Positions 5,659 to 38,996 are shown, counted from the first letter of the stretch. The stretch is DNA of 38,996 nt from Pelotomaculum sp. UBA5255 (GCA_002408725.1 DHTR01000027.1:1-38996), one strand, 5' to 3'. Translations and numbers: made by a program. The notes: generated from the sequence alone by a model not told the origin.

Positions 5659-5668
5659 TAAATAGTCA

Positions 5669-7214: not shown

Positions 7215-7240
7215 GCAACAAAAAACAATGACAAATTAAG

Positions 7241-9227: not shown

Positions 9228-9284
9228 CTTTGCCCGGACACACACTATGGATTCACTTAATAATGCTGAAAGGTGGGGATAAAG

Positions 9285-10853: not shown

Positions 10854-10878
10854 GTTTTATGAAAGGAGAAAAAATCCC

Positions 10879-12675: not shown

Positions 12676-12719
12676 TTGATAAAATAGTAAATAGCAATAA
12701 TAATCCTGGGGGTAACAGG

Positions 12720-13289: not shown

Positions 13290-13478
13290 GCCTGCAGAAT
13301 CACCTCAAAATACCATTAATCGTCAATATACAGCAGGCAATATGATATGTGGTAAGTATATGTTGTATCCATGTGTGACTTTGGCGGGATCCTGAGTAAG
13401 CTTAGAATGAACTTTTGTTCTTCCAATACTATGGCTGATTTGTAATAATCATTTAATAAGTCTGAAAGGTGGACAGTA

Positions 13479-22953: not shown

Positions 22954-23030
22954 ACAAGCCTATTGCATTGTCTTAAATCAAAATATACCAACGGTGTCCC
23001 AATATTTAATTGTTGGAGCAAGGCTCCGGC

Positions 23031-24218: not shown

Positions 24219-24346
24219 AAGCCTCCTCCTTCTGTGAAAATCGCCAAAACTAGGTTCCCCAGGGATTAGTTCCGTTATGTATTTCCGTGAGAGAAATATA
24301 AGCTCATAGCGCATACCTTTATGTTGAGAAAGTAGTTGAAAAGCAT

Positions 24347-24377
24347 AAAAAAACGCACCCGGACACCGCCGGGCGCT
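24347..24377 (-). terminator. Rho-independent terminator of the decarboxylase operon
   Basis: The minus strand reads gcgcccggcggtgtccgggtgcg followed by TTTTTTT (plus-strand A-run 24347-24353). It lies about 45 nt downstream of the beta-subunit stop (24420). Confidence 0.6.
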
Positions 24378-24419
24378 GGTATGTGTTTTCTGTGAATTTT
24401 GATTCCAGGGTCATCATCT

Positions 24420-25463: not shown

Positions 25464-25564
25464 GATTGCTTCTCTCCAGGACAGGTTGGCAAAGCCGGTG
25501 CTCTGCCAGATATCAACGATGAATTCCAGAACCCCTCAGCTCCTTTATTTAAGTCGGTATGATA

Positions 25565-25990
25565 TTAAGTAAGTGAGATCAGCAATTCTCCCGCCTGAAC
25601 GCTCTGCCCCTGTGTAACATGGATTTCCCGGACAGTTCCATCGCATTCGGCCAGCAGTTCATTTTCCATCTTCATCGCTTCCAGGATAATCAGTGCCTGG
25701 CCTCTTTTGATCGTTTCGCCGGACTTTACGTTTAAACTCAGAATGGTGCCGGGCATGGGAGATTTAAGAGATTTCCCCGAACTGTTAGCCGCACTGCTTC
25801 CCGAACTGCTTCTCGCGCTACTTTTCGGCGTGTTTACCTGGGCTTTGCCTCCGCTGATTGCCGTCAAGGGTTGAGCGGGAAAAACCTCAGTCTCTTGTTT
25901 GCTGTTGTGGTTGGTTTCATCCGTTTCCAGAACTTCTACCATCACGTCGTAACTGCGGCCGTTAACTGTAATCCTTAATTTTTCCATCAT
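25565..25990 (-). CDS. mmdC: Biotin carboxyl carrier subunit (decarboxylase gamma subunit)
   Basis: C-terminal biotinyl domain with LEAMKMENE (biotin-Lys in the AMKM motif), preceded by a Ser/Ala-rich linker. ATGA-type 4-nt overlap with the upstream gene. Confidence 0.8.
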   Translation of the reverse strand: MMEKLRITVNGRSYDVMVEVLETDETNHNSKQETEVFPAQPLTAISGGKAQVNTPKSSARSSSGSSAANSSGKSLKSPMPGTILSLNVKSGETIKRGQALIILEAMKMENELLAECDGTVREIHVTQGQSVQAGELLISLT

Positions 25991-26346
25991 TTTACACTCC
26001 TTAGGTCAAGGTTGGAACTGACCATTTCGCGCCTGCCGGCAGCCAGCCAGGTGGATGTTTGTCCCCCGTCCCACACAGGGGTTACAGCCTTAACTAACAC
26101 CGGCCGCTTATACCTCATCCGGGCGTAGTAGGAAGCTGCAGCGAAGACAGCCACCAGTTCTTCCCCGTTTTCTTCCCCAGTGGGAAGGTCTTCACGTAAA
26201 CCGGGTTCTGATTCGGCCCCGGCCTGGTTACTCTTGAAAAAGACAAGCTTAAAACAGTGCATCATCAGACCGAGTGCGCACAGGATCACAAAAACGGTTC
26301 CCATCCCAGTGACGGCCAGTTTAAAAGCCAGCATTCCAACTGACAT
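25987..26346 (-). CDS. Small membrane-anchor subunit of the decarboxylase (OadG/MmdD-like)
   Basis: 119 aa. A single N-terminal TM segment (LAVTGMGTVFVILCALGLMM) as in OadG-family subunits. It lies between the carboxyltransferase and biotin-carrier genes. Confidence 0.6.
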   Translation of the reverse strand: MSVGMLAFKLAVTGMGTVFVILCALGLMMHCFKLVFFKSNQAGAESEPGLREDLPTGEENGEELVAVFAAASYYARMRYKRPVLVKAVTPVWDGGQTSTWLAAGRREMVSSNLDLRSVK

Positions 26347-26361
26347 TTTTCTGATCTCTCC

Positions 26362-27915
26362 TTATAGCGGAATATTTCCGTTTTTCTTACCGGGTCTGCT
26401 TTCCCTTTTACCCGGCAGGGCCTCCAGTGCCTGAATCAGGGCCGGGCGGGTTTCCCTCGGGTCAATGACCCGGTCGATGTAGCCCCGCGCGGACGCTACA
26501 TAGGGGTGTGCGATTTTAGTGCAGTACTCTTCTACTTTAATGCTGCGCATGCTCTGTGGATCCGGGGATGAAGCCATTTGTTTCCGGAAGATAATGTCAA
26601 CAGCCCCTTCGGGCCCCATCACGGCTATCTCCGCGGTGGGCCAGGCCAGGGTTATATCTGCACCCAGCGAGCGGGAGCACATGGCAATATAGGCGCCTCC
26701 GTAAGCTTTGCGTAGGACAAGGGTAATTTTGGGCACGCTGGCCTCCGAGTAGGCAAAAAGCAGCTTTGCGCCGTGACGGATAATCCCATCGTGCTCCTGC
26801 CTGACACCGGGCAGATAACCCGGGGTGTCAACAAGGGTGAGCAGGGGGATGTTGAAGGCATTACAAAAACGGATGAACCGGGCGGCCTTATCCGAGGCGT
26901 TTATATCCAGGCATCCCGCCAGCACCTTGGGCTGGTTGGCGACAATACCCACTGCTCTTCCGTTCAGGCGACCGTAGCCGACAACAATATTGGTCGCGTA
27001 GTGCTCCTGTACCTCAAAGAACTTACCATGGTCAAGAATTAAACCAAGGATATCTCTGACCTCGTAGGGTTTGTTGGCTTTACAAGGAATGATTCCCGAC
27101 AGTTCATCGGAACAACGTCCGATTGGGTCGTTACAGGCCAGCCGGGGTGGATCCTCCAGGTTGTTTTGGGGGAGGTAATTGAACAGTTCCTTGAACTGCC
27201 CGAAACAGTCTGCTTCACTACCCGCATAAAAGTGGGCCACGCCGCTGAGCCGGCCGTGGGCTTCAGCACCTCCCAGAACCTCCTGGCTCACCTCTTCACC
27301 GGTAACCGACTTAATCACCTGGGGCCCGGTGATAAACATATTGGACGTGCCCTTGACCATGAAAACAAAATCCGTGAGCGCGGGAGAATAAACAGCCCCA
27401 CCTGCACACGGTCCTAAAATTAGCGAAAACTGGGGTATAACTCCGGATGAATGCGAATTGCGCCTGAATATTTCCCCATAGCCGTTTAAAGCATCCACGC
27501 CTTCCTGGATCCGGGCGCCGCCCGAATCATTCATACCGATCAGAGGAGCGCCGCTTTTCATGGCCAGATCCATCACTTTGCAGATCTTTTTGGCGTGCAT
27601 TTCCCCCAGGGTGCCTCCCACGGCTGTGAAGTCCTGGGAAAAAACATAGACAAGCCTTCCGCCAATGGTGCCGTAACCAGTTACAACACCTTCACCCGGA
27701 ATCTCTGACCTGTCCATGCCAAAATCTGAGCAACGGTGGGTTACAAACTGGTCGAGCTCGACAAAGCTCCCTTCATCCAGCAGTAGGTTCAACCGTTCCC
27801 TGGCGGTTAACTTGCCTGCCTTATGCTGTTTTTGAGTTTGCTTTTCTCCGCCTCCTAAAAGTACCCGCTCTCTTCTTGAGTTTAATAATTTTTGTTTTTC
27901 TTCAATGACTGTCAT
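26362..27915 (-). CDS. mmdA: Methylmalonyl-CoA decarboxylase alpha subunit / acyl-CoA carboxyltransferase (propionyl-CoA carboxylase beta-chain family)
   Basis: 517 aa. Motifs: GKLTARERLNLLLDEGSF.E, GVVTGYGTIGGR.VYVFSQDFT..GG.LGE.HA.KI, NDSGGARIQEG, GPCAGGAVYSPALTDF. All are typical of the carboxyltransferase 12S/MmdA family. Confidence 0.85.
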   Translation of the reverse strand: MTVIEEKQKLLNSRRERVLLGGGEKQTQKQHKAGKLTARERLNLLLDEGSFVELDQFVTHRCSDFGMDRSEIPGEGVVTGYGTIGGRLVYVFSQDFTAVGGTLGEMHAKKICKVMDLAMKSGAPLIGMNDSGGARIQEGVDALNGYGEIFRRNSHSSGVIPQFSLILGPCAGGAVYSPALTDFVFMVKGTSNMFITGPQVIKSVTGEEVSQEVLGGAEAHGRLSGVAHFYAGSEADCFGQFKELFNYLPQNNLEDPPRLACNDPIGRCSDELSGIIPCKANKPYEVRDILGLILDHGKFFEVQEHYATNIVVGYGRLNGRAVGIVANQPKVLAGCLDINASDKAARFIRFCNAFNIPLLTLVDTPGYLPGVRQEHDGIIRHGAKLLFAYSEASVPKITLVLRKAYGGAYIAMCSRSLGADITLAWPTAEIAVMGPEGAVDIIFRKQMASSPDPQSMRSIKVEEYCTKIAHPYVASARGYIDRVIDPRETRPALIQALEALPGKRESRPGKKNGNIPL

Positions 27916-28038
27916 ATGTTGTTCATCTCTCCCGCTTTTTTTCAGGAATGACTTTCTCGCAAAGCTTGAACAAGCCTTACTTTGGATTTCATCAAGCCCA
28001 TTAATTACAAGTCCATTAAAAAATGGATGTCATATTTT

Positions 28039-28067
28039 ATATTAAGAGCGTTGTATACAAAGTGCAA
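28039..28067 (-). promoter_or_regulatory. Candidate promoter of the decarboxylase operon with an embedded perfect palindrome
   Basis: Minus strand: TTGCAC (28067-28062), 17-nt spacer, TAATAT (28044-28039). The spacer contains the 10-bp perfect palindrome TTGTATACAA (28051-28060). The site is about 125 nt upstream of ATG 27915. Confidence 0.4.
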
Positions 28068-28130
28068 TTTATTTACGATATTGTTCTTTCTTTTGTTCTT
28101 AAAGATATGTGAAATAAATCATTTTGTCAG

Positions 28131-28166
28131 CAGTCACTTTACCTGTCGGTAGAGTGACTGTTTTTT
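28131..28166 (+). terminator. Orphan intrinsic-terminator-like hairpin (plus-strand sense)
   Basis: cagtcact (28131-28138) / 14-nt loop / agtgactg (28153-28160), then TTTTTT (28161-28166). No plus-strand gene lies upstream of it. Confidence 0.4.
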
Positions 28167-28269
28167 CTTGCCTTAAGTGACGGTTATCGAGGATAATGGT
28201 TGACATGTGCAGGTATGTGGAATATGCCAATCAGTGAGAAAGGATAAAAAAGAAGAAGAGAGAACCCCA

Positions 28270-28770
28270 ATGGCCCGACAGCCAGGTTCCCTCTTTTCTT
28301 TGGTTTCCAACAAGATGATTGTATTACAAGCAGTAATGGATGTCGAGACTTATCTTGAATTATTTAAAGACGGTTGCCCGGATTCCCTTCGCCCAATGGC
28401 GTGTTCCCACTGCCATGAGCAGTTAATGCTGCACCGGCATGGACATTACGAACGAACGGTATACTTTCTCGAAAATCAGTTTCTTATCGTAGTCTATCGA
28501 TTCAAGTGCCCGAACTGCAACCGTGTTGACGGCCTGCTCCCCTCCTTTGTAGGCAAAAACCAGCAGGCTGCCTGGGATATTCAGGAGACCGTCCTGCGTG
28601 AGCAGGCGGCGGGTGCTTCTTTAGCAAACGCAGCAGAAAATTTGGATGACATACCCGGCGGGCCGTATACCGAAAAAACCTTTTGGCGCTGGGTAAGCAG
28701 ATGGAACAAAGAATTGCCGCGGTGGACTCCCGCAGTTTGGGCGTTTGTACTGGAACGAACCTCGGTTTAA
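28270..28770 (+). CDS. Zinc-ribbon protein, DUF6431-like (a family often found next to or fused with transposases)
   Basis: I prefer ATG 28270 (MARQPGS...); the track start is 28207. Motifs: CSHCHEQLMLHRHGHYERTV....IVVYRFKCPNCNRVDGLLPSFV (CxxC...CxxC plus the hG.Y.R and LLPsF pattern I associate with DUF6431). No transposase catalytic domain follows. Confidence 0.5.
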   Translation: MARQPGSLFSLVSNKMIVLQAVMDVETYLELFKDGCPDSLRPMACSHCHEQLMLHRHGHYERTVYFLENQFLIVVYRFKCPNCNRVDGLLPSFVGKNQQAAWDIQETVLREQAAGASLANAAENLDDIPGGPYTEKTFWRWVSRWNKELPRWTPAVWAFVLERTSV

Positions 28771-29032
28771 CCCCCTAATTTTTGAGTCTGCTCCCCTTAT
28801 TCAGAATTCTGTCCTTGTTTCTTCGTTTAATGCTAAAAAGTAATTTGTCGTGGGTAGCATTGCAATGAATAGGGATTGTTTGCCTTATATGGTAATAAAT
28901 CAAAAAATAAAAATGGAAATACGCCCATAAATTTATGTAATTTGACAATTTTGGTCTGAGAAAGGAGGTTGTTTGCATCAATTGGAGAAATAACAGTTAT
29001 AACTTGCTGGTAGATCTCTCAAGATATATTGA

Positions 29033-30463
29033 ATGATCGATAGCAATAAGGAGGTGGTTTCAATAGATCTAAATGTTAAACTGCTTACTCCTGCCTGGAC
29101 AGGTGATGCAAACGAGAAGTGTAAACGCATCCACGAGACCGGGATCATCGGATCGTTGCGCTGGTGGTTTGAGGTTGTTGCACGTGGTTTAGGTGGATCT
29201 GCCTGTAGCCTTGATAATCACGAATGTTCCTTTGATGAGCAAAAATACAGGTCAATAATGAAAAACAGCTTAGATAAAATGAGAGCGTTATCGAAAGCCG
29301 GGCTCTGTCCGGCGTCCCAAGTTTTTGGTGCTACCGGGTGGAAAAAACGTTTTCAGCTGGATGCGGATAGTAACGAATTGAAAGAGATAATGGAGGAAAG
29401 TCGCTTTTTACCTAGCACGAGGCCTCATAATGGTAATCCCGGAGGGTGGTACATATTACCGGGTATGATTAGTGTCCGGGATAAAAGAAAAGATAAACAC
29501 GGCACTTCAAAGCTTTCTATTCGCTGGTCTGATAAGGACGAATTGAACAAAAACCTCTTGCTTGCGGTTTTCCGGCTCATGGAGAACTGGACAGGTGTCG
29601 GGGCAAAGACTACTAACGGATATGGTGTTTTTAAGGTAGAAAACGAACCTCAAGTAAATTTGCCGGGCTGGAATCCTTTTTTGGATTCCCAAAATACTAT
29701 CGAAAACAAAAACGGCATACTTCCTGAATTGAAAGACTTTTTTTTCAGTGTAATCAGATTTAAGCCCTACGATAACTGGTGGAAAAACTTTAAAGAGATA
29801 CAGGCTTGCTTAAGTAAAACTGTGAATATAGAAGGAGCAACAATAAATATAAGTAGAAGGAATCCCTTAACAAGTGATGACGCACACAAATGGTTGGAAC
29901 ATCAATGTTTTCCGAGCAGTTACATTATTCGCAACTGGTTGAGGTACAGTTGGTCCCACCACCTGGGGCAGGGAACGGAGAGTTTCATCTTTGGTACGGC
30001 GGCTAATGATGTTTGCCCACAATGTTATGAGAGATTGTTTTCAAAAAAAAGTCATTGTGGTGTCATTTTAACTAAAGAGAAAATTTTATCAAAAGTACGA
30101 TCTAAAATTGGGTTATCTCACGCTTATCAACAATCAGGTAACGCAAATGATATTTGGGAATTCAGGCTGTGGGGATATCTGCCTGGTCAAGGAAAACTGG
30201 AGCACCTGAAATTAAAATTAAAAAAGAATGCGGGTACGGGCAAAGGTGAGGATTTTCAAAGAGAAGAATTCTTGGAAAATTTGCAGGAAGCCGTACTGGA
30301 AAACGGCGCTTTATGGTCTTCTGCGGACGGTTTCAAAGCAGTAGGCCGGTGCCAAGGCGTTGTCTGGCGCGAATTCAATTCTTCGCGCGATACCGTTGGA
30401 TTGTCTAGTGATCCCTGGGAATTTTTCAAGAGCCTGGTTAAGGGGGAGGGTCTGTGTTGTTGA
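29033..30463 (+). CDS. cmr1: Type III CRISPR RAMP protein, Cmr1-like (two RAMP halves)
   Basis: N-terminus VKLLTPAWTGDA......ETGIIGSLRWWFEVVARGL (Cmr1-style TP...G...+...i+GsLRwWfR). Also QVFGATGWKKRF, G-rich loop GAKTTNGYGVFKV, and a second half with FIFGTA and a CPQC..HC cluster. The start is uncertain: ATG 29033 has no SD, and a strong AAGGAGGTG lies inside the ORF at 29048-29056. Confidence 0.65.
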   Translation: MIDSNKEVVSIDLNVKLLTPAWTGDANEKCKRIHETGIIGSLRWWFEVVARGLGGSACSLDNHECSFDEQKYRSIMKNSLDKMRALSKAGLCPASQVFGATGWKKRFQLDADSNELKEIMEESRFLPSTRPHNGNPGGWYILPGMISVRDKRKDKHGTSKLSIRWSDKDELNKNLLLAVFRLMENWTGVGAKTTNGYGVFKVENEPQVNLPGWNPFLDSQNTIENKNGILPELKDFFFSVIRFKPYDNWWKNFKEIQACLSKTVNIEGATINISRRNPLTSDDAHKWLEHQCFPSSYIIRNWLRYSWSHHLGQGTESFIFGTAANDVCPQCYERLFSKKSHCGVILTKEKILSKVRSKIGLSHAYQQSGNANDIWEFRLWGYLPGQGKLEHLKLKLKKNAGTGKGEDFQREEFLENLQEAVLENGALWSSADGFKAVGRCQGVVWREFNSSRDTVGLSSDPWEFFKSLVKGEGLCC

Positions 30464-31893
30464 GTGAATATTTCGCAGAAAAATATAAGAATGAGCTGGA
30501 GAATATCAATAAAAAAATTGAGGAATGCCCTTATGAAAAACCAAAGAAAATAACACAGTACTTGAGCAATAACCTTCCTGATATATTATCTGAAAAATCA
30601 TATGATTACGATATTTGGCCAAAGCTTGCCTTTTGGCAAACCTATTTTGAGGTGCAGGCTCAAAAGGACAAAAATAATGAAAAATACAGCAATGCTTTCA
30701 GAGAAATATTTAAATCCGCGCTTTCCCCTGCAAGGAATCAATTACGTACAAAAATAGAGTCCGACTTAGAAAACACATTTAAAAAATTTCAGGAACTACA
30801 CTTAACGGCTTCCCATCATGACCTGTCACTCATGCCACCGTACAGTTTCCTTATCTCCTTTAGTTTTAAATTGCGCAAACCTTATATATCCAGAGATGAT
30901 CAGGATTTCTATGTTATTGACAACCCGGTCAAAAAAGAGTGGGTTTTCAAGCTTCCCTTTGTTGCACCCAGTCAATGGAAGGGATGCCTGCATGCGGCGA
31001 TGGTTAGCCTGCTATGTAAGTGGTGGGATGCTGCCCCTGGCGATGGTGAAATGACTGATGAGTTTGTGGGCCGCCGTCTGGCTTTGGTGCGGCTTTTTGG
31101 TAATGAGTATGGAGTTGATGTAAGTGCAAGTGAATTTAACAATTACCTGGATCAATACGGCGGCCGGGCAGCGGCTGAAATATACCATGACCGCTTAAGA
31201 ACCATGCTAAGGGAAGGACGCAGACGCGGGCGGCTCCATTTTTATCCTACATACTTTAAAAAGATTGATCTTGAAGTGATCAACCGCCATGACCGCGTTA
31301 CCGGCGCTGGTACGGTTCCGGTTTTGTTTGAATGTGTCCCGGAGGGTGAGAAGGGGGAATTTACTATTCTTTATGTTCCCTATGATCTTGTCGGGGCAAA
31401 GGAAGTAAGTGCCCGCACGGAAGCGGCGGAAGACCTGTTGTTACTTGCTGATGGGATTGAATGTCTTTTTACTAATTTCGGGTTTGGCGCTAAGACAGGT
31501 TCGGCGTATGGCCTGGGGGAAGTGTCTAATGATACGAAAAAGGGAGAAATCTTTTTCAATAGCCCAACTGCCGGTACAAAAGAACAAGTTATTAATGTGC
31601 CAATAGAGTTTCAAAAATATCTTGACGAAAACCGGCAGATTCGCGGGGAGTTCCTGGATGAACAGGGTAGGTTTTTGAGCAACAACTCATATCGTAATAC
31701 TTCTCCGGCGGGCGGTGGTTCATTAAATGAGTATAAGAAGTTTAGAACTTGGTATGAGAAAAATAAACTCATATTAAGAAATGGCCAGGAAGAACCGAAG
31801 CCATTCACTTTCCGTACATTCCGGGAACTGAAAGAGGTGGCAGGAGAGTTAGCCGGTTTAATCAGAAGCAGCCAGGAGGGAGGAAAACTGTGA
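30454..31893 (+). CDS. cmr6: Type III CRISPR RAMP protein, Cas7-family (Cmr6 position) with N- and C-terminal extensions
   Basis: AAGGGGGAGGG SD, with GTG/TTG/TTG starts at 30454/30457/30460. Core: FSFKLRKPYISRDDQDFYVIDNPVKKEWVFKLPFVAPSQWKGCLHAAM (RAMP beta1, D.P..+, P.i..S.wKG.l+). Also RLFGNE, GRLHFYPTYF, and G-rich loop FGFGAKTGSAYGLGEV. Confidence 0.6.
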   Translation: MLLSEYFAEKYKNELENINKKIEECPYEKPKKITQYLSNNLPDILSEKSYDYDIWPKLAFWQTYFEVQAQKDKNNEKYSNAFREIFKSALSPARNQLRTKIESDLENTFKKFQELHLTASHHDLSLMPPYSFLISFSFKLRKPYISRDDQDFYVIDNPVKKEWVFKLPFVAPSQWKGCLHAAMVSLLCKWWDAAPGDGEMTDEFVGRRLALVRLFGNEYGVDVSASEFNNYLDQYGGRAAAEIYHDRLRTMLREGRRRGRLHFYPTYFKKIDLEVINRHDRVTGAGTVPVLFECVPEGEKGEFTILYVPYDLVGAKEVSARTEAAEDLLLLADGIECLFTNFGFGAKTGSAYGLGEVSNDTKKGEIFFNSPTAGTKEQVINVPIEFQKYLDENRQIRGEFLDEQGRFLSNNSYRNTSPAGGGSLNEYKKFRTWYEKNKLILRNGQEEPKPFTFRTFRELKEVAGELAGLIRSSQEGGKL

Positions 31894-34800
31894 GCCAGGA
31901 AGATAGCCGGGAAAAAGTACTGAATTTCATCGGAGATGTGAAAAAACACCGCCAGGGAGTACTCTTTGCTTCTGCCGGAGCGCTCCTCCACAATATGGGG
32001 AAGATAAACAGCAAGTTTATACGATACATGATAAATATTGATCCTGTGGGAGAGGATTATGAATACCAGCATATTTGCGGATTGTTTCTGGAAGACGTAA
32101 GGAACAAGAATCTCCGCGTTGACCGTAAAGTGCTGTTAAATAAGGGATACTTAGAACTATATGATCGGCTTGCTGGCTTTACGGTTAACATTGATGCCTT
32201 ATCAGAAGAAACGCGAAATGTAATGAAGCAGGAGATTTCCAGTTTGCCTGTTCCATTTAATGACCGTATTTATCGTATCGGCGATTTGCTTGAGTACCTT
32301 AGCTCCAATTGGTATAAGAAAAACAAAACAACAGAGAGATTAAACTTTAAAGAACTTGGTATTTTTGATTCAACACTGCTAACTCACCTGATGAACTGCT
32401 CTCACCACGGTGCTTCTGGCGGCGAAAAGCAAGATATTTGTACTTCACAACAGGCTTCCAGGCTGTTTATCGCGTCCCCCTTTGGATTTGAAATACCTCT
32501 TGTCGACATTTCAAAAGAATCTGAATGTGATTGCTATGATAAATTAAGGAACAGAGTTGAAGAGATTATTCAAAAGAACTTATCAGAACCGCTTAACCCC
32601 TTTCCAATAATCGGATTTGCACGTGAGTTGCGAGATTTGCTGCAACATGCACTGGGAGACACCCAGCGTCCGATAAACGACGTTACTGTTTGGGATATTG
32701 GTCATTCCGGTATGGCCTTCTTAAAGTCTGCTATTTGGAGTATATACATCAACGACAAGAATAAGAGTTTAACACACGATGATCTTTCTGATTGTAGAGA
32801 ATACCCACGTTGGCGTCTCTGGCGCTGTTCTTTTGACGGCCTTGATTTTTTGACGGGGGCGGTAAGCATTGCGGATCTCAATGTACGACAACGAAAATTT
32901 AAAGAGTACCTTGATGAAGTGCAGTGTTTTTTTGAATTCGCTTTCCCGCTCGGCACGGAAATTTACAGGGATGAGAACGGGAGTATGTTTATTTTCCCTG
33001 ATATAGAGCTTGATAGTATAGAATACAAAGCGGCAGCTGAATTATACAACAGGTCTCTTGTTGAGGCCAGGGGATATGGTATTGGCGAGCATTACTTGGA
33101 TACCGCTATTCAAGAGATTATAAAAAATTCCGGTGCAACACCCAGTACAGCTCTGCCTATGAACTCAATATACGGGATAGTCCCACAAGAAGAATTAGCA
33201 AAAGAGAATTATTATAATCACCCGGAATGTAAAGGTTATGGATGGAAAGTTGAGAAAAGAATCGATGTTAAGTACATTGGTGATCAGGTGAAAGAGTGGA
33301 TCGCAAACCCTGCTGCGGCAAAGCCTGTTGACAGGGTTTGGCAGGCTTATTTTGAAAATCACGCTGGCGTAAATATTCCGGATATTTGTCCTTATTGCGG
33401 TCTTCGCCCGGTTGGAAGCGGCGCTAATATTGTCAAAGATGATAAAAAAGAGTGTGAAAAATATTCTTTCATGGCAAAGCAGCGCAAGATTTGCTGTCCT
33501 TGCCTATTGAAAAGGGATGAAAGCAGTAAGACATGGTGGAATCATAAGAGGTTTAGCACGATTTGGATAGATGAAGTTGCGGACAACAATGGCCGTGTTG
33601 CCTTAGTTGTAGGGGAATTCAATATTGAAAAAATTTTGGACCGGCTTTTTTACCCGTATGACAAAGAAACAGAAAAAGAAATAAAATATAAGCCATACTG
33701 GTTAGATGGATTTCCCAAAGAAAACACGATCTTAAAAATTAAAGATAAGGATTATCATTATGACGGTACATATTTGAACGGTCCAGTTTTGTTTAAAGAG
33801 GACAACCGGAAGTATAAGAAAAATAATATTGATGTTTATAAACTTGATGGAAAAGAAGTAGAACCAACTTTAAAACTTTCATTTGATCATCTGGAAATCC
33901 CGCCTGAAAAACCTGATGAAGTCAGTATTTACCTTGCAGATGACAAACTGCTTGAAAAAGCAAGGGGTATGGATAAAGGGGATGACTGGCTTGTTCTTAT
34001 CAATAAAAAATGCATGTTTATGGGAAAAGAATGGAAAATTTCCGGCCAGCGGAAGCTTACTTATTATGACCCTGACAAAGAGATTATTCATGAATTTGTT
34101 TGTAAGCATTTTTATCTGGAAGCAGAAGAAGGGGCAGTAAAATATTATTTTGAACCAGTAGTAGAACCTATACGCATAAAACCTTCTAACTCCTTCGCCC
34201 GCTTTCGAAGAGTATGGGAAACTACGGCAAATTTCTGGAGGGATATACTACCACCGGAACATAATTATCCCGACATTCAATTATGGAAGAACGCCCTTAA
34301 AAATTCACTAGTTATCAAGAAATGGGATTCTACTTCCTTGCGACGTTTGAAACTGACTCTGCAAATGAATGGCGATAATTTCGCTTTCAGTAAATATCAG
34401 CCCTACGAGTTGGTAGGGAAAGGATTTAAATGCAGCCTTGTTTTTTTGAAAACAGATGGACAAAAGAAGCATGAATTTGTCACAATTGAAAATTTGGGTT
34501 ATATAGCCAGTCAGCTTGGGGTTAAAGAAAAAAATATTGCCGACCCGGCTGGTCTTGTAAAAAATATTTTGGAAAAACAGTCAAGGGACACCAAGTTCCA
34601 GATTGAAGAGACCACCGGCTACGGCAGCCCGAATAAAATCCGGGGAAATGCTGTTCTCGTAGAGGTTTCTTATGATAGCGAGAGTTTTTGGCCGTTCATC
34701 CCGATCCTGGCGGAACCACGGGTTTTTGCTGCCCTAGTGCCTGGAGAAAAAGCCTTAGATATTGTTAAGGAGATCAAAAAAAAGTATGAGAAGGAAATGG

Positions 34801-35627
34801 CTAAAACTAGGTGGCGGTTGCCCCTTAAGCTCGGCCTGGTCTTTTTCCCTCGCCACACGCCGCTTCGCTTCGCCCTGGACGCTGGCTGGCGAATGCTTAG
34901 ATCAGAAACAGGGGAATTTACTGCTAAAGTCGCGGAAGTTGAAAGAAAAGGTAACAATCCAAATAATGCAGCTAGCGATTGCTTAAAGGATTTACTGCTC
35001 GCCACGTCTGTAAAAATAAAGGTCAATGTTGAAAAGGATCCACCATTCCAAAGCCGTGATCGCCGGATAATATGGGATGTGCCGACAGTGATGGGTGACC
35101 AAAGGACATTTGACGTTTGGTACCCCTGGGTTGAATCTAAAAATAAAGGATATATCCATGTTACGGATTTAGAAGAAGAGGATGAGATCCTTTTTGCCCC
35201 ATCAACCTTTGACTTTCTTGATCTCGACCACCCAGGGAAGCGTTTTCAGCTTTATTACAACTATTCGTTGCACAGACCAGGTAGCAACTCTCCGTATCTA
35301 ATGGAAGAACTGGACTACTTTGATAAGATTTGGACGATAGTGTCCGGCAACAAGGGACTTACAAGCACCCAGATCTATAATGTCTGGTCGCTGCTGTTAG
35401 TAAAGAGGCAAGAGTGGCCTCATGGCAGTGAACGGAATAAGAAAGTCTGGCAGGAGTTCTGCAGACAGGTCATGCTTAATGCCGGGTGGAAGGACGGTTT
35501 ACCGGCTGATGAAGAGTTGGACATTGTGGTCCGTGCGGCAGCGGACGGTGTGCTGTTTGATGTATTAGAGCTTCATTTGACCATTTTAAAATTAAAAACC
35601 AAAAGGGATTTCAAAAGGGATCTATAG
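31890..35627 (+). CDS. cas10: Cas10-like type III large subunit (Cmr2-type), highly divergent; HD motif reads HN, cyclase GGDD/DxD motifs absent, large insertions
   Basis: GTGA overlap with the upstream gene; SD GGAGGGAGG. Collinear Cas10 landmarks: N-terminal GALLHNMGK (H34 N35, position of LLHDIGK); GDTQRPINDVTVWDIGHSGMAFLKSA (the dTR.P..vsLwdH...tsA motif); SFDGLDFLTG (D.sGIQ.FI position); zinc finger CPYC(500-503)...CCPC(535-538); VALVVGEFNIEKI (position of l..DvDnlG); SFARFRRVWETTANFW (SR...lS...FF position); ILAEPRVFAALVPGEKALDIV...LKLGLVFFPRHTPL (position of GGDDlf...SaGi....P). Confidence 0.7.
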   Translation: MSQEDSREKVLNFIGDVKKHRQGVLFASAGALLHNMGKINSKFIRYMINIDPVGEDYEYQHICGLFLEDVRNKNLRVDRKVLLNKGYLELYDRLAGFTVNIDALSEETRNVMKQEISSLPVPFNDRIYRIGDLLEYLSSNWYKKNKTTERLNFKELGIFDSTLLTHLMNCSHHGASGGEKQDICTSQQASRLFIASPFGFEIPLVDISKESECDCYDKLRNRVEEIIQKNLSEPLNPFPIIGFARELRDLLQHALGDTQRPINDVTVWDIGHSGMAFLKSAIWSIYINDKNKSLTHDDLSDCREYPRWRLWRCSFDGLDFLTGAVSIADLNVRQRKFKEYLDEVQCFFEFAFPLGTEIYRDENGSMFIFPDIELDSIEYKAAAELYNRSLVEARGYGIGEHYLDTAIQEIIKNSGATPSTALPMNSIYGIVPQEELAKENYYNHPECKGYGWKVEKRIDVKYIGDQVKEWIANPAAAKPVDRVWQAYFENHAGVNIPDICPYCGLRPVGSGANIVKDDKKECEKYSFMAKQRKICCPCLLKRDESSKTWWNHKRFSTIWIDEVADNNGRVALVVGEFNIEKILDRLFYPYDKETEKEIKYKPYWLDGFPKENTILKIKDKDYHYDGTYLNGPVLFKEDNRKYKKNNIDVYKLDGKEVEPTLKLSFDHLEIPPEKPDEVSIYLADDKLLEKARGMDKGDDWLVLINKKCMFMGKEWKISGQRKLTYYDPDKEIIHEFVCKHFYLEAEEGAVKYYFEPVVEPIRIKPSNSFARFRRVWETTANFWRDILPPEHNYPDIQLWKNALKNSLVIKKWDSTSLRRLKLTLQMNGDNFAFSKYQPYELVGKGFKCSLVFLKTDGQKKHEFVTIENLGYIASQLGVKEKNIADPAGLVKNILEKQSRDTKFQIEETTGYGSPNKIRGNAVLVEVSYDSESFWPFIPILAEPRVFAALVPGEKALDIVKEIKKKYEKEMAKTRWRLPLKLGLVFFPRHTPLRFALDAGWRMLRSETGEFTAKVAEVERKGNNPNNAASDCLKDLLLATSVKIKVNVEKDPPFQSRDRRIIWDVPTVMGDQRTFDVWYPWVESKNKGYIHVTDLEEEDEILFAPSTFDFLDLDHPGKRFQLYYNYSLHRPGSNSPYLMEELDYFDKIWTIVSGNKGLTSTQIYNVWSLLLVKRQEWPHGSERNKKVWQEFCRQVMLNAGWKDGLPADEELDIVVRAAADGVLFDVLELHLTILKLKTKRDFKRDL

Positions 35628-35648
35628 AACAGGAGGTGCTTTTAGAAC

Positions 35649-36686
35649 ATGGTTGATAAAAAAAAGTGCAATTCTTTACACCGTTTTATTCTTGAAACAC
35701 TTGACCCGGTTCATGTCGGCGCCGGTGGTTACCGCATCGGCAGGGTGGACCTATCAATTGTCCGTGAACCTGGGACGCGCCTGCCAAAACTCCCGGGGAC
35801 AGGAATCTCTGGAGCTGTAAGGCACTATGCAACGATCTTTTACGGAAAAACTATTTGTGCCGGTCAGGGTCGGCAGGATGAGGGGGGAAAGCAAGCAGGT
35901 CACTGTGGCCAAAATACCTGTCCGATTTGTTATACCTTTGGCAGTGTCAGTGGGGATAGGTCTTTTGCAGGTACTGTCCATATATTTGATGCCCGGTTGC
36001 TCTTTTTCCCTGTTTACAGTACCGCCGGTCCGGTTTGGGTTACCTGTCCCGATATCCTTCTGGGTTTAGAGCTGGCCGATGAATCCGCTCTTAATGAGGT
36101 TACTGATGATAAGGTGTTGGCGGGGCCGAAGCTTTGTGGTTATCAATACCTGAACCTGGGATGGCTGATGGTTGGAGTAAACAACTATCGTGAGCAAAAA
36201 AAAGAGCAATCGGGTAGTCGAGAGCTTTCGCTATTTAATAACCTTTCGTGTTTACCTGTACCGGTAAAGGAACGCTGTGTTGTGGTCAGTGACACTATTT
36301 TCCCCCATGTCGTTAATTCCAACCTGGAGGTGCGGACTTCCGTCAGTATCGATCCGGAAACCGGAGCTGCCAGGGAAGGCGCTCTTTTCACTTACGAAGC
36401 CATTCCCCGAGCGGCTTTCTTGTGGCTTGACGTATTGGAAAACGATTTCAGAAAAAATGAAAACCAAAAGACTTGGCCAGTAAAGAAAAAGGTGAAATAT
36501 GAGAACCAAAAGTGGCAGGATAATGCCGGAGATAGTTTACCCGAAGCAAATATCTGGGAGACCCCTATTGACGTGGTTAAGACAGGTCTGGAGATGATGG
36601 AATGCATGGGAGTGGGTGGTATGGCGACACGCGGCTTCGGGCGCATCAAGAATCTGGGGGAGGTTGGGATTAATGAAAAACCTTGA
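35649..36686 (+). CDS. cmr4: Type III Cas7 backbone subunit, Cmr4-like
   Basis: SD AGGAGGTG lies 9 nt upstream. Motifs: LETLDPVHVGAGG...GRVDLSIVREPGTRLPKLPGTGISGAVRH (Cmr4 pattern tP.HvG.G....vD.pi.Re..t..P.ipgs.i.Ga.R, Asp34 at the catalytic-Asp position); FGS....AGTVHIFDARLLFFPVYSTAGPVWVTCPDIL (DA.lL.FPVrS..G..wvT.P..L); C-terminal GVGGMATRGFGRI G-rich loop. Confidence 0.75.
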   Translation: MVDKKKCNSLHRFILETLDPVHVGAGGYRIGRVDLSIVREPGTRLPKLPGTGISGAVRHYATIFYGKTICAGQGRQDEGGKQAGHCGQNTCPICYTFGSVSGDRSFAGTVHIFDARLLFFPVYSTAGPVWVTCPDILLGLELADESALNEVTDDKVLAGPKLCGYQYLNLGWLMVGVNNYREQKKEQSGSRELSLFNNLSCLPVPVKERCVVVSDTIFPHVVNSNLEVRTSVSIDPETGAAREGALFTYEAIPRAAFLWLDVLENDFRKNENQKTWPVKKKVKYENQKWQDNAGDSLPEANIWETPIDVVKTGLEMMECMGVGGMATRGFGRIKNLGEVGINEKP

Positions 36687-37215
36687 TTTCTGGGCGGCTG
36701 AGGCCAGTATGAATTTAATCGGTAAAGTAGCCGGGGGGATCGGGCAGGCAAGTCAAGGTAGTAGTAAAAGTGAAGTCAAGGAGTATCAAAAACTGTATGT
36801 CTCTGTCGGAAAATGTATGGGGATATTGCTGGAAAACGGAGTTTACGCCCTCTTTGTTTACCTTTTGGCTAAGAAGACGGACTACAGCGAAATCATATAT
36901 AAAGAATTATATGCTGCCCTCAAGACTTTACAGCAGAATCTTAAAAATGAGCATAATATGGAAGATGATGAAGCCTGTCAACACAACGCCGGTGCCAGAA
37001 AACCAGTTGGACAACAAGAACTGCTATTTGATGCGGAAGATTGTCTTAACTGGCTGCAGAAGGAGGTAATGGAACTTCCAAGGCTTTTGCTGGTCAGGGA
37101 ATACCTGCAGCAGATCCTGGTTTACACACGCTACAGCGCGGCGGCGAAAAAGAAAGAGGCTGAAAGTAATAGAAAAAAAACGGCGGTTCCCGCCGGTGGT
37201 GGTGAGCTGGATTGA
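36673..37215 (+). CDS. cmr5: Type III small subunit, Cmr5/Cas11-like
   Basis: ATG 36673 follows GGGGAGGTTGGG and overlaps the cmr4-like stop by 14 nt; the track start 36616 lies inside cmr4. About 180 aa, predicted all-helical. YQKLYVSVGKCMGILLENGVYALFVYLLAKK resembles the Cmr5 core helix pattern. Position is between the Cmr4-like and Cas5-like genes. Confidence 0.55.
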   Translation: MKNLDFWAAEASMNLIGKVAGGIGQASQGSSKSEVKEYQKLYVSVGKCMGILLENGVYALFVYLLAKKTDYSEIIYKELYAALKTLQQNLKNEHNMEDDEACQHNAGARKPVGQQELLFDAEDCLNWLQKEVMELPRLLLVREYLQQILVYTRYSAAAKKKEAESNRKKTAVPAGGGELD

Positions 37216-38243
37216 CTTGGTCGGCTTTTAGGGTGATTTTCCGTCTTTGCACACCTCTTCACGCAGGATGGAGGAGAGTGGGCAATACCTGGCAGACACG
37301 CACTTACCTCCCCGCGGTAAACCTTTTTAAGGCAGTTGTAGCGCGGTGCACGGAAAAGCAGATATGGTTTGAGAGTGGGGATGAACCCAATCCCTATATC
37401 AGAAAACAGAATTGGTTGCAGCATCGCCTGTTGTTTACATATTTTTTTCCGGCAATTTACCACCAGGGGAAATACCAAGTCTATATTCCCGGTCCCTGTG
37501 ATCGGCGCCTTATTGAATATATGTTTCTTGACTGTTACGGTGGAACGTCTTTGAATCATGCTGCCAGTACAGCGCTGGACGGCAGCCTTCACTACGTGGA
37601 ATATATCAGACCGTTTGCGCGTTCCCTGAGCAAACACGTTCCCTCCCAAGAATCTATTGACTCGTACGGGAACCCGGGCATCCCGACTTTGCTTTACGGT
37701 TATTGCTTTTTTAAAGTCCAAGATAGTGCGAACGGGTGTTCAAAAGGTTCGAGTGATGTTGGCAATTTGCTAAGGCAGGTTTTAAAAAACATTCAGGTGG
37801 GAGGGGAACGTTCCAGCGGTTGGGGAAAGTTGACTCTTGCCGGGGATGGATTCAAAGAGCTTGGTGAAATACCTTCTGACACTAGCCCGGCTATGGATCT
37901 CTTTACTGTAGTAAATTTAGGTGGGCCGCTTGCACGGTTATATATGAAATCCGGTAGCCCCTGCATTAAAGTGGGGGGACAGGAAAAGAAAAAAGAAGGG
38001 TATATCCCGGCCCATCTTAAAGCTGAACCCGGTCTGGTTACAATAAGGGGAAGAAATGAAATGCTATATACTAGAGAGACAATTACTGTGAAAGGAAGGA
38101 CTCAGTTTGGCGGCCGGACTCGAGCAATTCCTTGTCTTGCACCGGGTGCAGTGGTGCAGGTGGAAGGTGATAAGCATGGGGGCTCATGTTTTAGAATTGA
38201 ACCTGTAAGTTGTATCTGGAAACATGATAGTATAAATTCCTGA
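37212..38243 (+). CDS. cmr3: Type III RAMP, Cas5-family (Cmr3 position)
   Basis: TTGA overlap with the upstream stop. RAMP beta1 FRVIFRLCTPLHAGW......TRTYLPAVNLFKAVVA. G-rich loop IQVGGERSSGWGKLTL mid-protein, followed by a second domain. The assignment to Cmr3 rather than another RAMP (for example Cas6-like) rests mainly on gene order. Confidence 0.5.
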   Translation: MTWSAFRVIFRLCTPLHAGWRRVGNTWQTRTYLPAVNLFKAVVARCTEKQIWFESGDEPNPYIRKQNWLQHRLLFTYFFPAIYHQGKYQVYIPGPCDRRLIEYMFLDCYGGTSLNHAASTALDGSLHYVEYIRPFARSLSKHVPSQESIDSYGNPGIPTLLYGYCFFKVQDSANGCSKGSSDVGNLLRQVLKNIQVGGERSSGWGKLTLAGDGFKELGEIPSDTSPAMDLFTVVNLGGPLARLYMKSGSPCIKVGGQEKKKEGYIPAHLKAEPGLVTIRGRNEMLYTRETITVKGRTQFGGRTRAIPCLAPGAVVQVEGDKHGGSCFRIEPVSCIWKHDSINS

Positions 38244-38490
38244 TGTTTTTAATACTAAGTCTTTTTTCCTTGTCAGACAATCACATTGATACTTCCGGTG
38301 CAGTATTTTGTTAACGAGGAGAGATCGATCTTGGGCGGTCGGTGCTTTGAAAACCACTTTGTTATCTAAATAAAAAGCATATCAGCGCATCACCTTATAT
38401 TTTACAGTACCGGGGGTGGAACAGATATAAGGTAACAAGAAATAATGTTGATAAGAGGGTTTTAAAATGAGTGGGAAATAGGATAAACAT

Positions 38491-38543
38491 AAAACCCCGT
38501 CGCCTACATGGATTAGCATATGCGAAGGGGTTTTCCTTTTTAT
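38491..38543 (+). other. Strong hairpin followed by T-run (terminator-like or small structured RNA) downstream of the cas operon
   Basis: aaaaccccgtcgc (38491-38503) / 18-nt loop / gcgaaggggtttt (38522-38534). That is 12 of 13 positions paired, then cctttttat. It lies about 250 nt after the cmr3-like stop. Confidence 0.35.
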
Positions 38544-38996
38544 CCGCACTTTCCCCATTGATTGACATGTGCCGTTCGTTTATCCACAATGAATGGCATG
38601 GACCATCTTTTACTGACGGCTGGCTTCTCGTTATATTGGCGGCTTGTCGTTACACTTCTACCGCCATTGTCGGAGAGAAAGGCGCCGTCAAATTAGGTGA
38701 GAAGCAACATTATTTGGCTAAAATGGGTTAAAGTTGTAAATACAGGTAGGATAATATGAGATTTCACCATGGGTGGGAACTGGAGCTTGATTTTACCGGC
38801 TTAATCGAACGTGAGACGGATATTTATTCCATATTGCACTCCACTGTGGAGAACCGTACACTTGAAAGCTGCCGCAGGTGCGGATTTTAGTTTTTTTGCA
38901 CGAAATATTCAACAAGTGCTTCACTCAATAACACAGGTGGTCATTGTAAGTGTATTTACAAGCTCTTGACAGGAAGCTTTATAGCCCCCTAAACAA

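What the first reader, a model, noticed from the sequence alone, without database searches (positions are those of the whole stretch)
29033..38243. Stand-alone six-gene type III (subtype III-C-like) effector operon with no array, cas6, adaptation module or cOA-dependent partner in view
Six co-directional ORFs are translationally coupled. Junctions are a 10-nt overlap at 30454-30463, GTGA at 31890-31893, a 21-nt gap at 35628-35648, a 14-nt overlap at 36673-36686, and TTGA at 37212-37215. By motif they read as Cmr1-like RAMP, Cmr6-position Cas7 RAMP, Cas10-like large subunit, Cmr4-like Cas7, Cmr5/Cas11-like small subunit, and Cas5/Cmr3-position RAMP. That order is the one given for subtype III-C in the Makarova/Koonin classification (Methanothermobacter MTH328-323 archetype). 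I read both flanks (27916-29032 and 38244-38996) for regularly spaced 25-40-nt direct repeats and saw none. No Cas6, Cas1/Cas2, CARF/SAVED, Csx1/Csm6 or Can-type ORF is in the window. Either the complex borrows crRNAs from a distant array (trans-supplied Cas6) or it has been repurposed. III-C systems are among the least characterised type III variants, and this one looks even more derived (see the Cas10 findings).
Basis: partly seen in the sequence, partly recalled or inferred. Interest (0 to 1): 0.7.

Follow-up and report, generated by a model that had tools for sequence, protein, structure and literature searches.

The report
Array-less type III-C CRISPR effector island
The six genes are an intact but ordinary subtype III-C CRISPR effector module, carried on a 10.6-kb insertion that some near-identical strains lack and that sits next to where those strains carry a second, signalling-competent type III-D CRISPR system, so it looks orphaned only because the contig breaks at a transposase gene.

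Summary
Six co-directional, overlapping or tightly spaced ORFs lie at 29033-38243, and the window contains no CRISPR array, cas6, adaptation gene or CARF gene.

The subtype call also holds. Subtype-specific profiles identify Cmr1, Cmr6, Cas10c/Csx11, Cmr4, Cmr5 and Cmr3, and this order recurs in every related genome locus that is complete enough to show it.

The Cas10 oddities are family-wide, not specific to this copy. The cyclase motif GGDD reads AEPR, and the N-terminal HD motif reads HN in 74 of 88 homologues.

Three things are new:
- The cassette lies on a 10,591-bp, low-GC, strain-variable insertion (28121-38711) bounded by a 4-nt ATTT repeat.
- A contig 99.9% identical in the flank lacks the insertion. 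It continues 0.64 kb further into a Can2/Card1-like CARF nuclease and a cyclase-competent Cas10d.
- The window ends inside a second insertion that leads to an IS3-type transposase gene.

The "orphan" look is therefore largely an assembly artefact. The likeliest mechanism is a crRNA-guided RNA-cutting complex that uses crRNAs made from arrays elsewhere in the genome. This is a new member of a known but biochemically uncharacterised subtype, of moderate interest.

The parts
28121..38711 (.). Strain-variable insertion of 10,591 bp that carries the whole cassette. Its GC is 0.435, against 0.516 for the rest of the window.
   Evidence: The joint 28120->38712 appears in one Logan contig each of three runs from two studies. 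A full empty-site contig, L036/L044, is 99.90% identical to the left flank.
28121..28124 (.). ATTT, the left copy of the 4-nt direct repeat at the insertion boundary. The right copy is at 38712-38715, and the empty site has a single ATTT.
   Evidence: The read laying joints report 4 letters that fit either side. The sequence was read directly.
38712..38715 (.). ATTT, the right copy of the boundary repeat. Positions 38712-38763 are core genome.
   Evidence: 51 of 52 nt identical to the empty-site contig.
28207..28770 (+). ORF with DUF6431 and an ISL3-type zinc ribbon. It is probably the truncated 5' part of a multi-copy IS-like element (about 28125-28759) and forms the left end of the insertion.
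   Evidence: Pfam DUF6431 1.7e-6 and Zn_ribbon_ISL3 2.2e-3. In other runs this piece has different flanks at 28124 and 28759 and higher depth than the cassette.
29033..30463 (+). g1, a Cmr1-like RAMP (Cas7 group). The start codon is uncertain.
   Evidence: Pfam RAMPs 2.5e-19. TIGR01894 Cmr1 1.5e-14. PADLOC Cmr1 'CAS-III-B,CAS-III-C' 1.6e-24.
30454..31893 (+). g2, a Cmr6-like Cas7 RAMP with the C-terminal glycine-rich loop GFGAKTGSAYG.
   Evidence: PADLOC Cmr6 4.3e-81. The orthologue profile hits Csm3 and Cmr6 chains in the PDB. Alignment A3.
31890..35627 (+). g3, Cas10c/Csx11 large subunit. Features: N-terminal HD-like domain reading H34-N35; zinc finger C500/C503/C535/C538; a beta-rich insertion at about aa 570-760; palm-2 hairpin reading AEPR in place of GGDD.
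   Evidence: TIGR02682 Csx11 312 bits against a cut-off of 249. PADLOC Cas10c 'CAS-III-C' 5.5e-131 over aa 16-1234. Alignment. The N-half model matches Csm1/Cas10 chains at E 4e-5. The C-half model shows the hairpin.
35649..36686 (+). g4, the Cmr4-like backbone Cas7. It has an invariant Asp34 in GRVD, the position of the Cmr4 catalytic Asp, and a conserved Cys-rich insert.
   Evidence: TIGR02580 Cmr4 107 bits against a cut-off of 87. PADLOC Cmr4 6.7e-45. Alignment A7.
36673..37215 (+). g5, the Cmr5/Cas11 small subunit.
   Evidence: PADLOC Cmr5 7.1e-22 and 'CAS-III-C effector_SS' 3.4e-20. Four of 24 orthologues hit Pfam Cas_Cmr5.
37212..38243 (+). g6, the Cmr3/Cas5 RAMP.
   Evidence: PADLOC Cmr3 2.2e-41. 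21 of 23 orthologues hit Pfam RAMPs. Weak Csm4 matches in the PDB.
38491..38541 (+). Terminator-like hairpin followed by a U run, about 250 nt after the last stop codon. It lies inside a ~157-nt segment (38437-38593) that also occurs elsewhere in the same metagenomes.
   Evidence: Fold energy -17.9 kcal/mol, z -2.46. Extra depth and loose ends at 38437, 38481, 38491 and 38593.
38764..38996 (.). Start of a second insertion that is absent from empty-site strains. About 55 nt past the window end it leads to an IS3-type transposase OrfA.
   Evidence: Loose ends at 38763 in X5 and X12. Empty-site sequence. Identical contigs L001/L002 extend into MTQKRYSDEFKEQIIHQ..., which hits HTH_Tnp_1 at 8e-11.

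Best explanation
The six genes encode a complete, apparently intact subtype III-C CRISPR interference complex, in the order Cmr1, Cmr6, Cas10c/Csx11, Cmr4, Cmr5, Cmr3. The module entered this Bacillota-like chromosome as part of a 10.6-kb low-GC insertion (28121-38711). That insertion brought no array, cas6, adaptation genes or ancillary effector.

Shown:
- the gene identities and their order;
- the insertion boundaries;
- that near-identical strains lacking the insertion carry a type III-D locus (Can2/Card1-like CARF nuclease, then a Cas10d with GGDD) starting 0.64 kb to the right of the insertion site.

Inferred:
- The complex loads Cas6-processed crRNAs made from arrays elsewhere in the genome, most likely those serving the neighbouring III-D system.
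- It binds complementary transcripts, and the Cmr4-like backbone cuts them using Asp34.
- Cas10c cannot make cyclic oligoadenylate, so the complex does not itself fire CARF effectors.
- Any further activity would come from the conserved N-terminal HD-like (His-Asn) domain, possibly a target-activated nuclease.
For: Identity: Csx11 equivalog above its cut-off and subtype-specific PADLOC hits for all six proteins. The order g1 to g6 is conserved in the related loci. The Cas10 fold of the N-half is supported by Foldseek.

Dead cyclase: AEPR sits at the palm hairpin and no homologue has GGDD there. The literature agrees (PMC11229360, PMC8730458).

RNA cleavage competence: Asp34 is invariant in GRVD.

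Insertion: the empty-site joint appears in three runs, and a full empty-site contig is 99.90% identical over 5,224 nt. GC is 0.435 against 0.516.

Neighbouring III-D: CARF plus PD-(D/E)xK nuclease at 3.2e-105 and Cas10d at 1.8e-133, with GGDD intact. A relative whose CARF nuclease is 82% identical has the full III-D operon flanked by two arrays.

crRNA sharing is plausible. Arrays next to III-C cassettes in relatives, and the III-D arrays, all have repeats ending in ...GAAAG or ...GAAAC. III-C cassettes without their own array are common.

There is a weak sign of transcription: a metatranscriptome has contigs over parts of g2, g3 and g6.
Against: No crRNA, array or cas6 has been linked to this strain. 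Whether the window's own strain still has the III-D locus beyond the second insertion (the one carrying the IS3-type transposase gene) is not shown, because all contigs that carry the insertion stop at about that point.

The second residue of the HD motif is Asn in place of the metal-binding Asp, so DNase activity is uncertain. No III-C complex has been characterised experimentally in the searched literature. The PDB holds no chain with detectable sequence similarity to Cas10c.

The metatranscriptome signal is thin (depth 2-4) and DNA carry-over is not excluded.

The closest relatives carry a CorA-like gene, cas6 and/or an array next to the cassette. This copy lacks them and could be an incomplete capture.
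Confidence: 0.6

Rival explanations
1. Inert cargo. The cassette was captured without an array, cas6 or ancillary gene, has no crRNA supply in this host, and is a neutral passenger on its way to decay.
For: There is no array or cas6 in the 10.6-kb insertion or the window. The insertion has a truncated IS-like piece at its left end and a second insertion 52 nt beyond its right end. Its closest relatives have CorA-like, cas6 and/or an array that this copy lacks.
Against: All six ORFs are full length and keep every family-invariant residue. The sequence is almost unchanged in runs dated 2014 to 2025. A type III-D locus lies beside the site in near-identical strains.
Confidence: 0.2
2. Repurposed complex. 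The module works without conventional spacers, for example on host transcripts or as a regulator, or through an unknown activity of the His-Asn domain.
For: The cyclase is dead and the HD motif altered across the whole family, yet the N-terminal domain keeps many invariant polar residues: H34, K38, H172, K180, D257 and D264. No experimental work on III-C was found.
Against: In relatives the cassette sits directly beside arrays, cas6 and cas4-cas1, the signature of ordinary crRNA-guided defence. Nothing here points to a host target.
Confidence: 0.1
3. The module has its own array and cas6 just beyond the window end, hidden by the assembly break, so it is a conventional self-contained locus.
For: In A. 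thiophilus and A. degensii the array begins within about 0.3-0.9 kb of the last gene. All contigs that carry the insertion stop within about 0.9 kb of g6.
Against: The empty-site contigs place the right end of the insertion at 38711. The next 52 nt are core genome, followed in the ancestral arrangement by a helicase fragment and the III-D locus, not an array. The 468 nt between g6 and the boundary hold no repeats.
Confidence: 0.05

Closest known systems
Subtype III-C CRISPR-Cas (MTH326-like; Cas10 analogue Csx11, TIGR02682), as defined by Vestergaard et al. 2014 (PMC3973734) and the Makarova/Koonin classification
   Same: The large subunit belongs to the same family and scores above the curated cut-off. 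The six-gene order is the same. The polymerase/cyclase is inactivated. There are no associated cOA effectors (PMC11229360). The interference module is often encoded apart from arrays.
   Different: Nothing essential differs. This copy is a divergent bacterial member: the best non-self Cas10c is 66% identical, the next 49%. It sits on a defined strain-variable insertion.
Ammonifex degensii KC4 Adeg_0805 locus and the Ammonifex thiophilus locus, the nearest named genomes (Cas10c 38-41% identical)
   Same: The same six genes in the same order, with the same HN and AEPR motifs.
   Different: Those loci have a CorA-like membrane protein gene directly upstream of cmr1. Downstream, A. degensii has a 27-repeat array and A. 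thiophilus has cas6 plus an array. The window has none of these.
Subtype III-B Cmr complexes (for example Pyrococcus furiosus and Archaeoglobus fulgidus)
   Same: The same subunit families (Cmr1, 3, 4, 5, 6). The backbone Cmr4 Asp lies in the same motif (own knowledge of Pf Cmr4 D26). Cmr modules often use crRNAs from arrays shared with other systems.
   Different: The gene order differs: here cmr6 precedes cas10. III-B Cas10 (Cmr2) has an active GGDD cyclase and signals to CARF effectors. Here the motif is AEPR, and Cas10c has no detectable sequence similarity to any solved Cas10.
Type III modules that borrow crRNAs from a co-resident CRISPR system (own knowledge: Marinomonas III-B using I-F arrays; Sulfolobus and Pyrococcus shared arrays)
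   Same: An effector-only module lying beside or near another complete CRISPR-Cas system.
   Different: Sharing is only inferred here. The partner would be a III-D system, and its presence in this exact strain is not shown.

Membership tests
Subtype III-C CRISPR-Cas | Large subunit of the Csx11/Cas10c family | tested here: met
   TIGR02682 7.7e-93, 312 bits against a cut-off of 249. PADLOC Cas10c 'CAS-III-C; effector_LS' 5.5e-131 over aa 16-1234.
Subtype III-C CRISPR-Cas | Cas10 fold: HD-like domain, palm 1, zinc finger, palm 2 | tested here: met
   The N-half model (pLDDT 81, pTM 0.87) has only Csm1/Cmr2 chains as top hits, at E 4e-5 and probability 1.0. The C-half gives only weak Cmr2 hits (6s8e_K, E 0.03, probability 0.9) because of a large beta-rich insertion.
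Subtype III-C CRISPR-Cas | Cyclase/polymerase catalytic motif (GGDD) inactivated | tested here: met
   The palm-2 hairpin reads IPILA-EPR-VFAALVP. Every homologue the pattern caught (45 of 88) has xEPR, xEPQ or similar, and none has GGDD.
Subtype III-C CRISPR-Cas | Gene order cmr1-cmr6-cas10-cmr4-cmr5-cmr3 | tested here: met
   PADLOC assignments for each gene. The same order is seen in the related loci.
Subtype III-C CRISPR-Cas | Backbone Cas7 with the catalytic Asp for target RNA cleavage | tested here: met
   Asp34 in GRVD is invariant in 25 sequences. Its equivalence to Pf Cmr4 D26 rests on my own knowledge and was not tested biochemically.
Subtype III-C CRISPR-Cas | Functional HD nuclease domain | tested here: inconclusive
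   The motif reads LLH34-N35-MGK, as in 74 of 88 homologues; only 2 have HD. Other His and Asp residues are conserved. There is no Pfam HD hit.
Subtype III-C CRISPR-Cas | Loaded with crRNA from a CRISPR array | not testable with these tools
   There is no array in the window. Arrays lie beside the cassette in about 10 of 26 relatives and beside the III-D locus of a relative.
Transposon or IS-borne cargo | Target-site duplication at both ends | tested here: inconclusive
   A 4-nt ATTT lies on both sides and appears once in the empty site. This could be a duplication or microhomology.
Transposon or IS-borne cargo | Terminal inverted repeats and an intact transposase | tested here: not met
   No terminal inverted repeat was found. 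The best local match is internal, with a score of 26 against shuffles of 16.9 +/- 2.1. The only transposase-like ORF is a 187-aa DUF6431/zinc-ribbon fragment.

The most novel reading that the evidence does not exclude
An array-less, cyclase-dead III-C effector cassette moves between strains as a discrete ~10.6-kb unit. It lands at the edge of a resident type III-D locus and plugs into that system's crRNA supply. The host then has a second, signalling-independent arm guided by the same spacers. That arm could, for example, resist phage ring nucleases or anti-cOA proteins.

A related reading concerns the conserved His-Asn domain of Cas10c. Together with the CorA-like genes that flank III-C in the nearest relatives, it may point to an output other than cOA.
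Probability: 0.25. Interest if true: 0.6.

Novelty: new member of a known kind. Interest (0 to 1): 0.38.

Why it matters
Subtype III-C has been defined bioinformatically since 2011-2014. I found no biochemical or structural study of it, so how a Cas10 without cyclase activity protects a cell is still open.

This locus adds nothing categorically new to that question. It does offer a clean natural comparison: near-identical strains with and without the III-C module, beside a signalling-competent III-D system. That pairing would let one test whether III-C shares crRNAs and what it adds to immunity.

It is also a caution for genome scans. "Orphan" effector modules on contigs that end in insertion sequences may have their partners just past the break.

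Tried and rejected
- Pfam and NCBIfam alone left g2, g5 and g6 unassigned. Profile searches against PDB sequences gave only weak Cmr5 and Csm4 hits. PADLOC's Cas profiles settled all three.
- The Cas10c profile found no PDB sequence at all.
A homologue search for g6 returned only 7 proteins, so I used the second fold on the Cas10c C-half. Its Foldseek result was dominated by spurious beta-sandwich hits.
- Repeats from relatives' arrays were searched for in the window, and none was found.
- I looked for remnants of the relatives' CorA-like and cas6 genes with tblastn. There were none.
- The organism could not be named, because cluster look-ups returned no source names.
- Two scans of JGI metagenome contigs, for the empty-site junction and for the core segment, found nothing. 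The empty site came instead from a look-up of the flanking carboxyltransferase.
I therefore could not test whether the sample that yielded the window also holds the III-D genes.
- I considered a composite transposon and an IS200/IS605-like mechanism for the insertion. Neither is supported by terminal structures.


Full report
**1. Observation**

The junctions are also as stated: a 10-nt overlap, GTGA, a 21-nt gap, a 14-nt overlap and TTGA. Purine-rich Shine-Dalgarno-like runs precede g2 to g6, but not the ATG at 29033, so the g1 start is uncertain. Gene calls on identical public contigs agree, including the 36673 start of the fifth gene.

No CRISPR array is present anywhere in the 38,996 bases. 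Tandem Repeats Finder, a direct-repeat search, a spaced k-mer scan and Rfam all found nothing.

I scanned the 20 gene-like ORFs upstream of the cassette with Pfam. They were chosen from the 58 ORFs of at least 100 aa; the remainder are nested or antisense. These genes encode:
- RCC1/cadherin-like and SLH-domain surface proteins;
- an ECF/cobalt-type ABC transporter;
- ComEC;
- a cyclopropane-fatty-acid synthase;
- a methylmalonyl-CoA/oxaloacetate decarboxylase operon.

That is a Bacillota-like chromosome with no Cas6, Cas1, Cas2, CARF or SAVED protein.

**2. Identity of the six genes**

General libraries gave a partial answer:
- g1 hits RAMPs and TIGR01894 (Cmr1).
- g4 hits TIGR02580 (Cmr4) above its cut-off.
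- g3 hits the Csx11 equivalog TIGR02682 at 312 bits, against a cut-off of 249.
- g2, g5 and g6 were left unassigned.

PADLOC, which carries the subtype-specific Cas profiles, resolved all six:

| Gene | PADLOC assignment | E-value |
|---|---|---|
| g1 | Cmr1 (III-B/III-C) | 1.6e-24 |
| g2 | Cmr6 | 4.3e-81 |
| g3 | Cas10c, "CAS-III-C effector_LS", aa 16-1234 | 5.5e-131 |
| g4 | Cmr4 | 6.7e-45 |
| g5 | Cmr5, "CAS-III-C effector_SS" | 7.1e-22 and 3.4e-20 |
| g6 | Cmr3 | 2.2e-41 |

A scan of one genome per species found 26 loci encoding a Cas10c relative. Every locus complete enough to show the order has the same g1 to g6 arrangement. The hosts span Bacillota, Chloroflexota, Armatimonadota, other bacterial phyla and methanogens.

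This matches the published definition of subtype III-C: Csx11 as the Cas10 analogue and a synteny close to III-B (PMC3973734).

**3. The Cas10c protein**

An AlphaFold model of residues 1-560 (mean pLDDT 81, pTM 0.87) has only Csm1/Cmr2 chains among its best PDB matches, at E 4e-5 and probability 1.0.

A model of residues 560-1245 (pLDDT 82) shows a large beta-rich insertion. Its matches to Cmr2 are weak.

By sequence, a family profile finds nothing in the PDB. No III-C large subunit therefore appears to have been solved.

Four features stand out in the alignment:
- The N-terminal motif reads LLH34-N35-MGK, where other Cas10 proteins read LLHDxGK (own knowledge).
- Other polar residues in this domain are invariant: H172, K180, D257 and D264.
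- A four-cysteine zinc finger is kept (C500, C503, C535, C538).
- The palm-2 hairpin that should carry GGDD reads IPILA-EPR-VFAALVP. The model shows it as strand, turn, strand, then helix.

Across 88 homologues, 74 have HN and 2 have HD. None that the pattern caught has GGDD. These traits therefore belong to the family, not to this copy.

The literature states the same. III-C lacks cyclase active sites and known ancillary effectors, and about half the loci have a recognisable HD domain (PMC11229360). The polymerase is inactivated (PMC8730458).

**4. The other subunits**

The Cmr4-like protein is the best-conserved subunit, at 45-59% identity across phyla. It keeps an invariant Asp34 in GRVD. 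From my knowledge of P. furiosus Cmr4 D26, that is the RNA-cleaving residue. It also carries a conserved cysteine-rich insert.

g2 has the RAMP core and the glycine-rich loop typical of Cmr6. All six ORFs are full length and retain the family-invariant positions. The module looks functional.

**5. How unusual is "stand-alone"?**

Of the related loci with several kb of flank, about ten have an array within 10 kb. It usually lies directly downstream of cmr3, sometimes after cas6 or cas4-cas1. Roughly as many have none.

One array-less example comes from a 175-kb contig in which the six genes sit between a group II intron reverse transcriptase and SLH and ECF-transporter genes.

A census of 143 neighbouring proteins found Cas1, Cas6, Cas4, type I-D genes and RecF-like ATPases. 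No CARF family appeared among the recurrent hits. An array-less III-C cassette is thus a common state for the subtype.

**6. The cassette is a strain-variable insertion**

GC content falls from 0.516 to 0.435 at the cassette.

I laid Logan contigs of public metagenomes on 27800-38996. A joint 28120->38712, skipping 10,591 nt, appears in one contig each of three runs from two studies. Four letters (ATTT) fit either side of the joint, and depth is higher on the flanks than inside.

A look-up of the flanking carboxyltransferase then recovered a full empty-site contig, L036/L044. It is 99.90% identical to window 22901-28124, with 5 mismatches in 5,224 nt. It reads ...GTGAAATAAATC-ATTT-GGCTAAAATGGG... 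across the site.

The insertion is therefore 28121-38711. Its leftmost ~640 nt hold a DUF6431/ISL3-zinc-ribbon ORF. In other runs that piece has different flanks and higher depth, so it is a truncated copy of a multi-copy IS-like element.

I found no terminal inverted repeats. The insertion mechanism is open: the ATTT could be a target duplication or microhomology.

**7. What lies beyond the window**

Only 52 nt of core sequence (38712-38763) follow the insertion. From 38764 the window diverges from the empty-site strains. Identical contigs that run about 180 nt further enter an ORF matching HTH_Tnp_1, an IS3-type OrfA, at 8e-11. That repeat is why every assembly of this region stops here.

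In the empty-site strain the chromosome continues with three features:
- a short helicase fragment;
- a 400-aa CARF plus PD-(D/E)xK nuclease of the Can2/Card1 kind (Pfam; PADLOC 3.2e-105);
- a 530-aa Cas10d (1.8e-133) with an intact GGDD.

Relatives whose CARF nuclease is 82% and 79% identical show the full III-D operon: Cas10d, Cas7, Csx10/Cas5, Cas7, Csx19, Cas7 and Csx1/Csm6. One of these operons is flanked by two arrays, and the other is preceded by Wadjet and a Cas3 gene.

The III-C module thus landed at the edge of a defence island that holds a signalling-competent type III-D system.

Whether the window's own strain still has that system beyond the second insertion is not shown. I could not lay reads on those loci.

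**8. Mechanism**

Most likely (confidence about 0.6), the complex assembles on Cas6-processed crRNAs from arrays elsewhere in the genome. The III-D arrays are the obvious candidates. Repeats beside III-C cassettes in relatives and the III-D repeats end alike, in ...GAAAG or ...GAAAC.

The complex would then bind complementary transcripts and cut them with Cmr4 Asp34. It cannot make cOA. Any second activity must come from the His-Asn domain.

A metatranscriptome holds low-depth contigs over parts of g2, g3 and g6. This is a weak hint of transcription.

The rivals are inert cargo (0.2), a repurposed non-canonical role (0.1) and a hidden private array just past the break (0.05). The mapped right boundary argues against the last.

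**9. Verdict**

The "more derived" claim is not supported. The "orphan" status is mostly a matter of where the contig ends.

This is a new, divergent member of a known but experimentally unexplored subtype. The nearest Cas10c is 66% identical and the next 49%. Its most useful aspect is the natural presence/absence polymorphism beside a III-D system.

Noticed in passing
L031:5964-7550 (A. degensii), L004:6025-7374, L010:1860-3392, L008:370-1281, L030:225-1878: In the nearest relatives a CorA-like membrane protein gene (PADLOC CorA 1.5e-97) lies directly upstream of cmr1 of the cyclase-dead III-C cassette. In L030 it is split in two. CorA is known as a SAM-AMP-activated effector of cyclase-active type III systems, so its activator here is unclear. 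Shah et al. 2018 list the CorA association as 'B,(C),D'. The window has no trace of this gene.
   Followed up: partly
L006:6650-8613, L009:1818-3963, L013:1677-3787, L015:3229-5318, L017:6662-8739, L025:819-2872: In six III-C loci (and probably L012) a gene pair is inserted between cmr1 and cmr6. One gene is a ~420-455-aa AAA_15/AAA_21 (RecF-like) ATPase and the other a ~240-290-aa protein with no family hit. It probably corresponds to the 'Cas_RecF' accessory module of the literature.
   Followed up: partly
L044:6975-8308, L045:427-3218 (empty-site strain); L046, L048 (relatives): Resident type III-D locus beside the insertion site. It comprises a Can2/Card1-like CARF nuclease, a Cas10d with GGDD, and in relatives Cas7/Csx10/Csx19 and a Csx1/Csm6 CARF-HEPN protein. 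In L046 two arrays flank it (37-nt repeat GTTTCACTGAYAATCCCGATGACAAGGGGACTGAAAG). In L048 Wadjet and a Cas3 gene lie upstream.
   Followed up: yes
window 38764-38996 and beyond (L001:11553-11964): A second insertion, absent from empty-site strains, starts 52 nt after the III-C insertion. It interrupts a small ORF just after its ATG and leads to an IS3-type OrfA (HTH_Tnp_1, 8e-11). This repeat is what breaks all assemblies here.
   Followed up: yes
window 38437-38593: A ~157-nt segment containing a terminator-like hairpin (-17.9 kcal/mol) has about 1.5-fold extra depth. It joins to other sequences in several metagenomes, so it is a short dispersed repeat, possibly MITE-like or an IS scar.
   Followed up: partly
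window 35649-36686 (aa ~70-95 of the Cmr4-like protein): A conserved cysteine/histidine cluster (CAGQG...HCG...CPICYTFG) is inserted in the Cmr4-like Cas7. It looks like a zinc ribbon and is kept in most of the 25 orthologues.
   Followed up: no
window 33600-34170 (Cas10c aa ~570-760): A beta-rich insertion between the zinc finger and the conserved SFARFRRVWETT segment. It varies greatly in length across the family and is absent in some members. In the fold search it attracts C2/beta-sandwich matches.
   Followed up: partly
window 55-16246: A run of large surface-protein genes: a 1,867-aa RCC1-repeat/cadherin-like protein, then five SLH-domain proteins with Fn3-associated, chitobiase-C and molybdopterin-oxidoreductase-like domains, and a Big_2 protein. 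One of them also has a Shr-like haem-binding domain.
   Followed up: no
window 28125-28759: The DUF6431/zinc-ribbon ORF is a truncated copy of an element found at higher depth and with other flanks in a landfill metagenome and a food-fermentation metatranscriptome. Its full-length form and family were not determined.
   Followed up: partly
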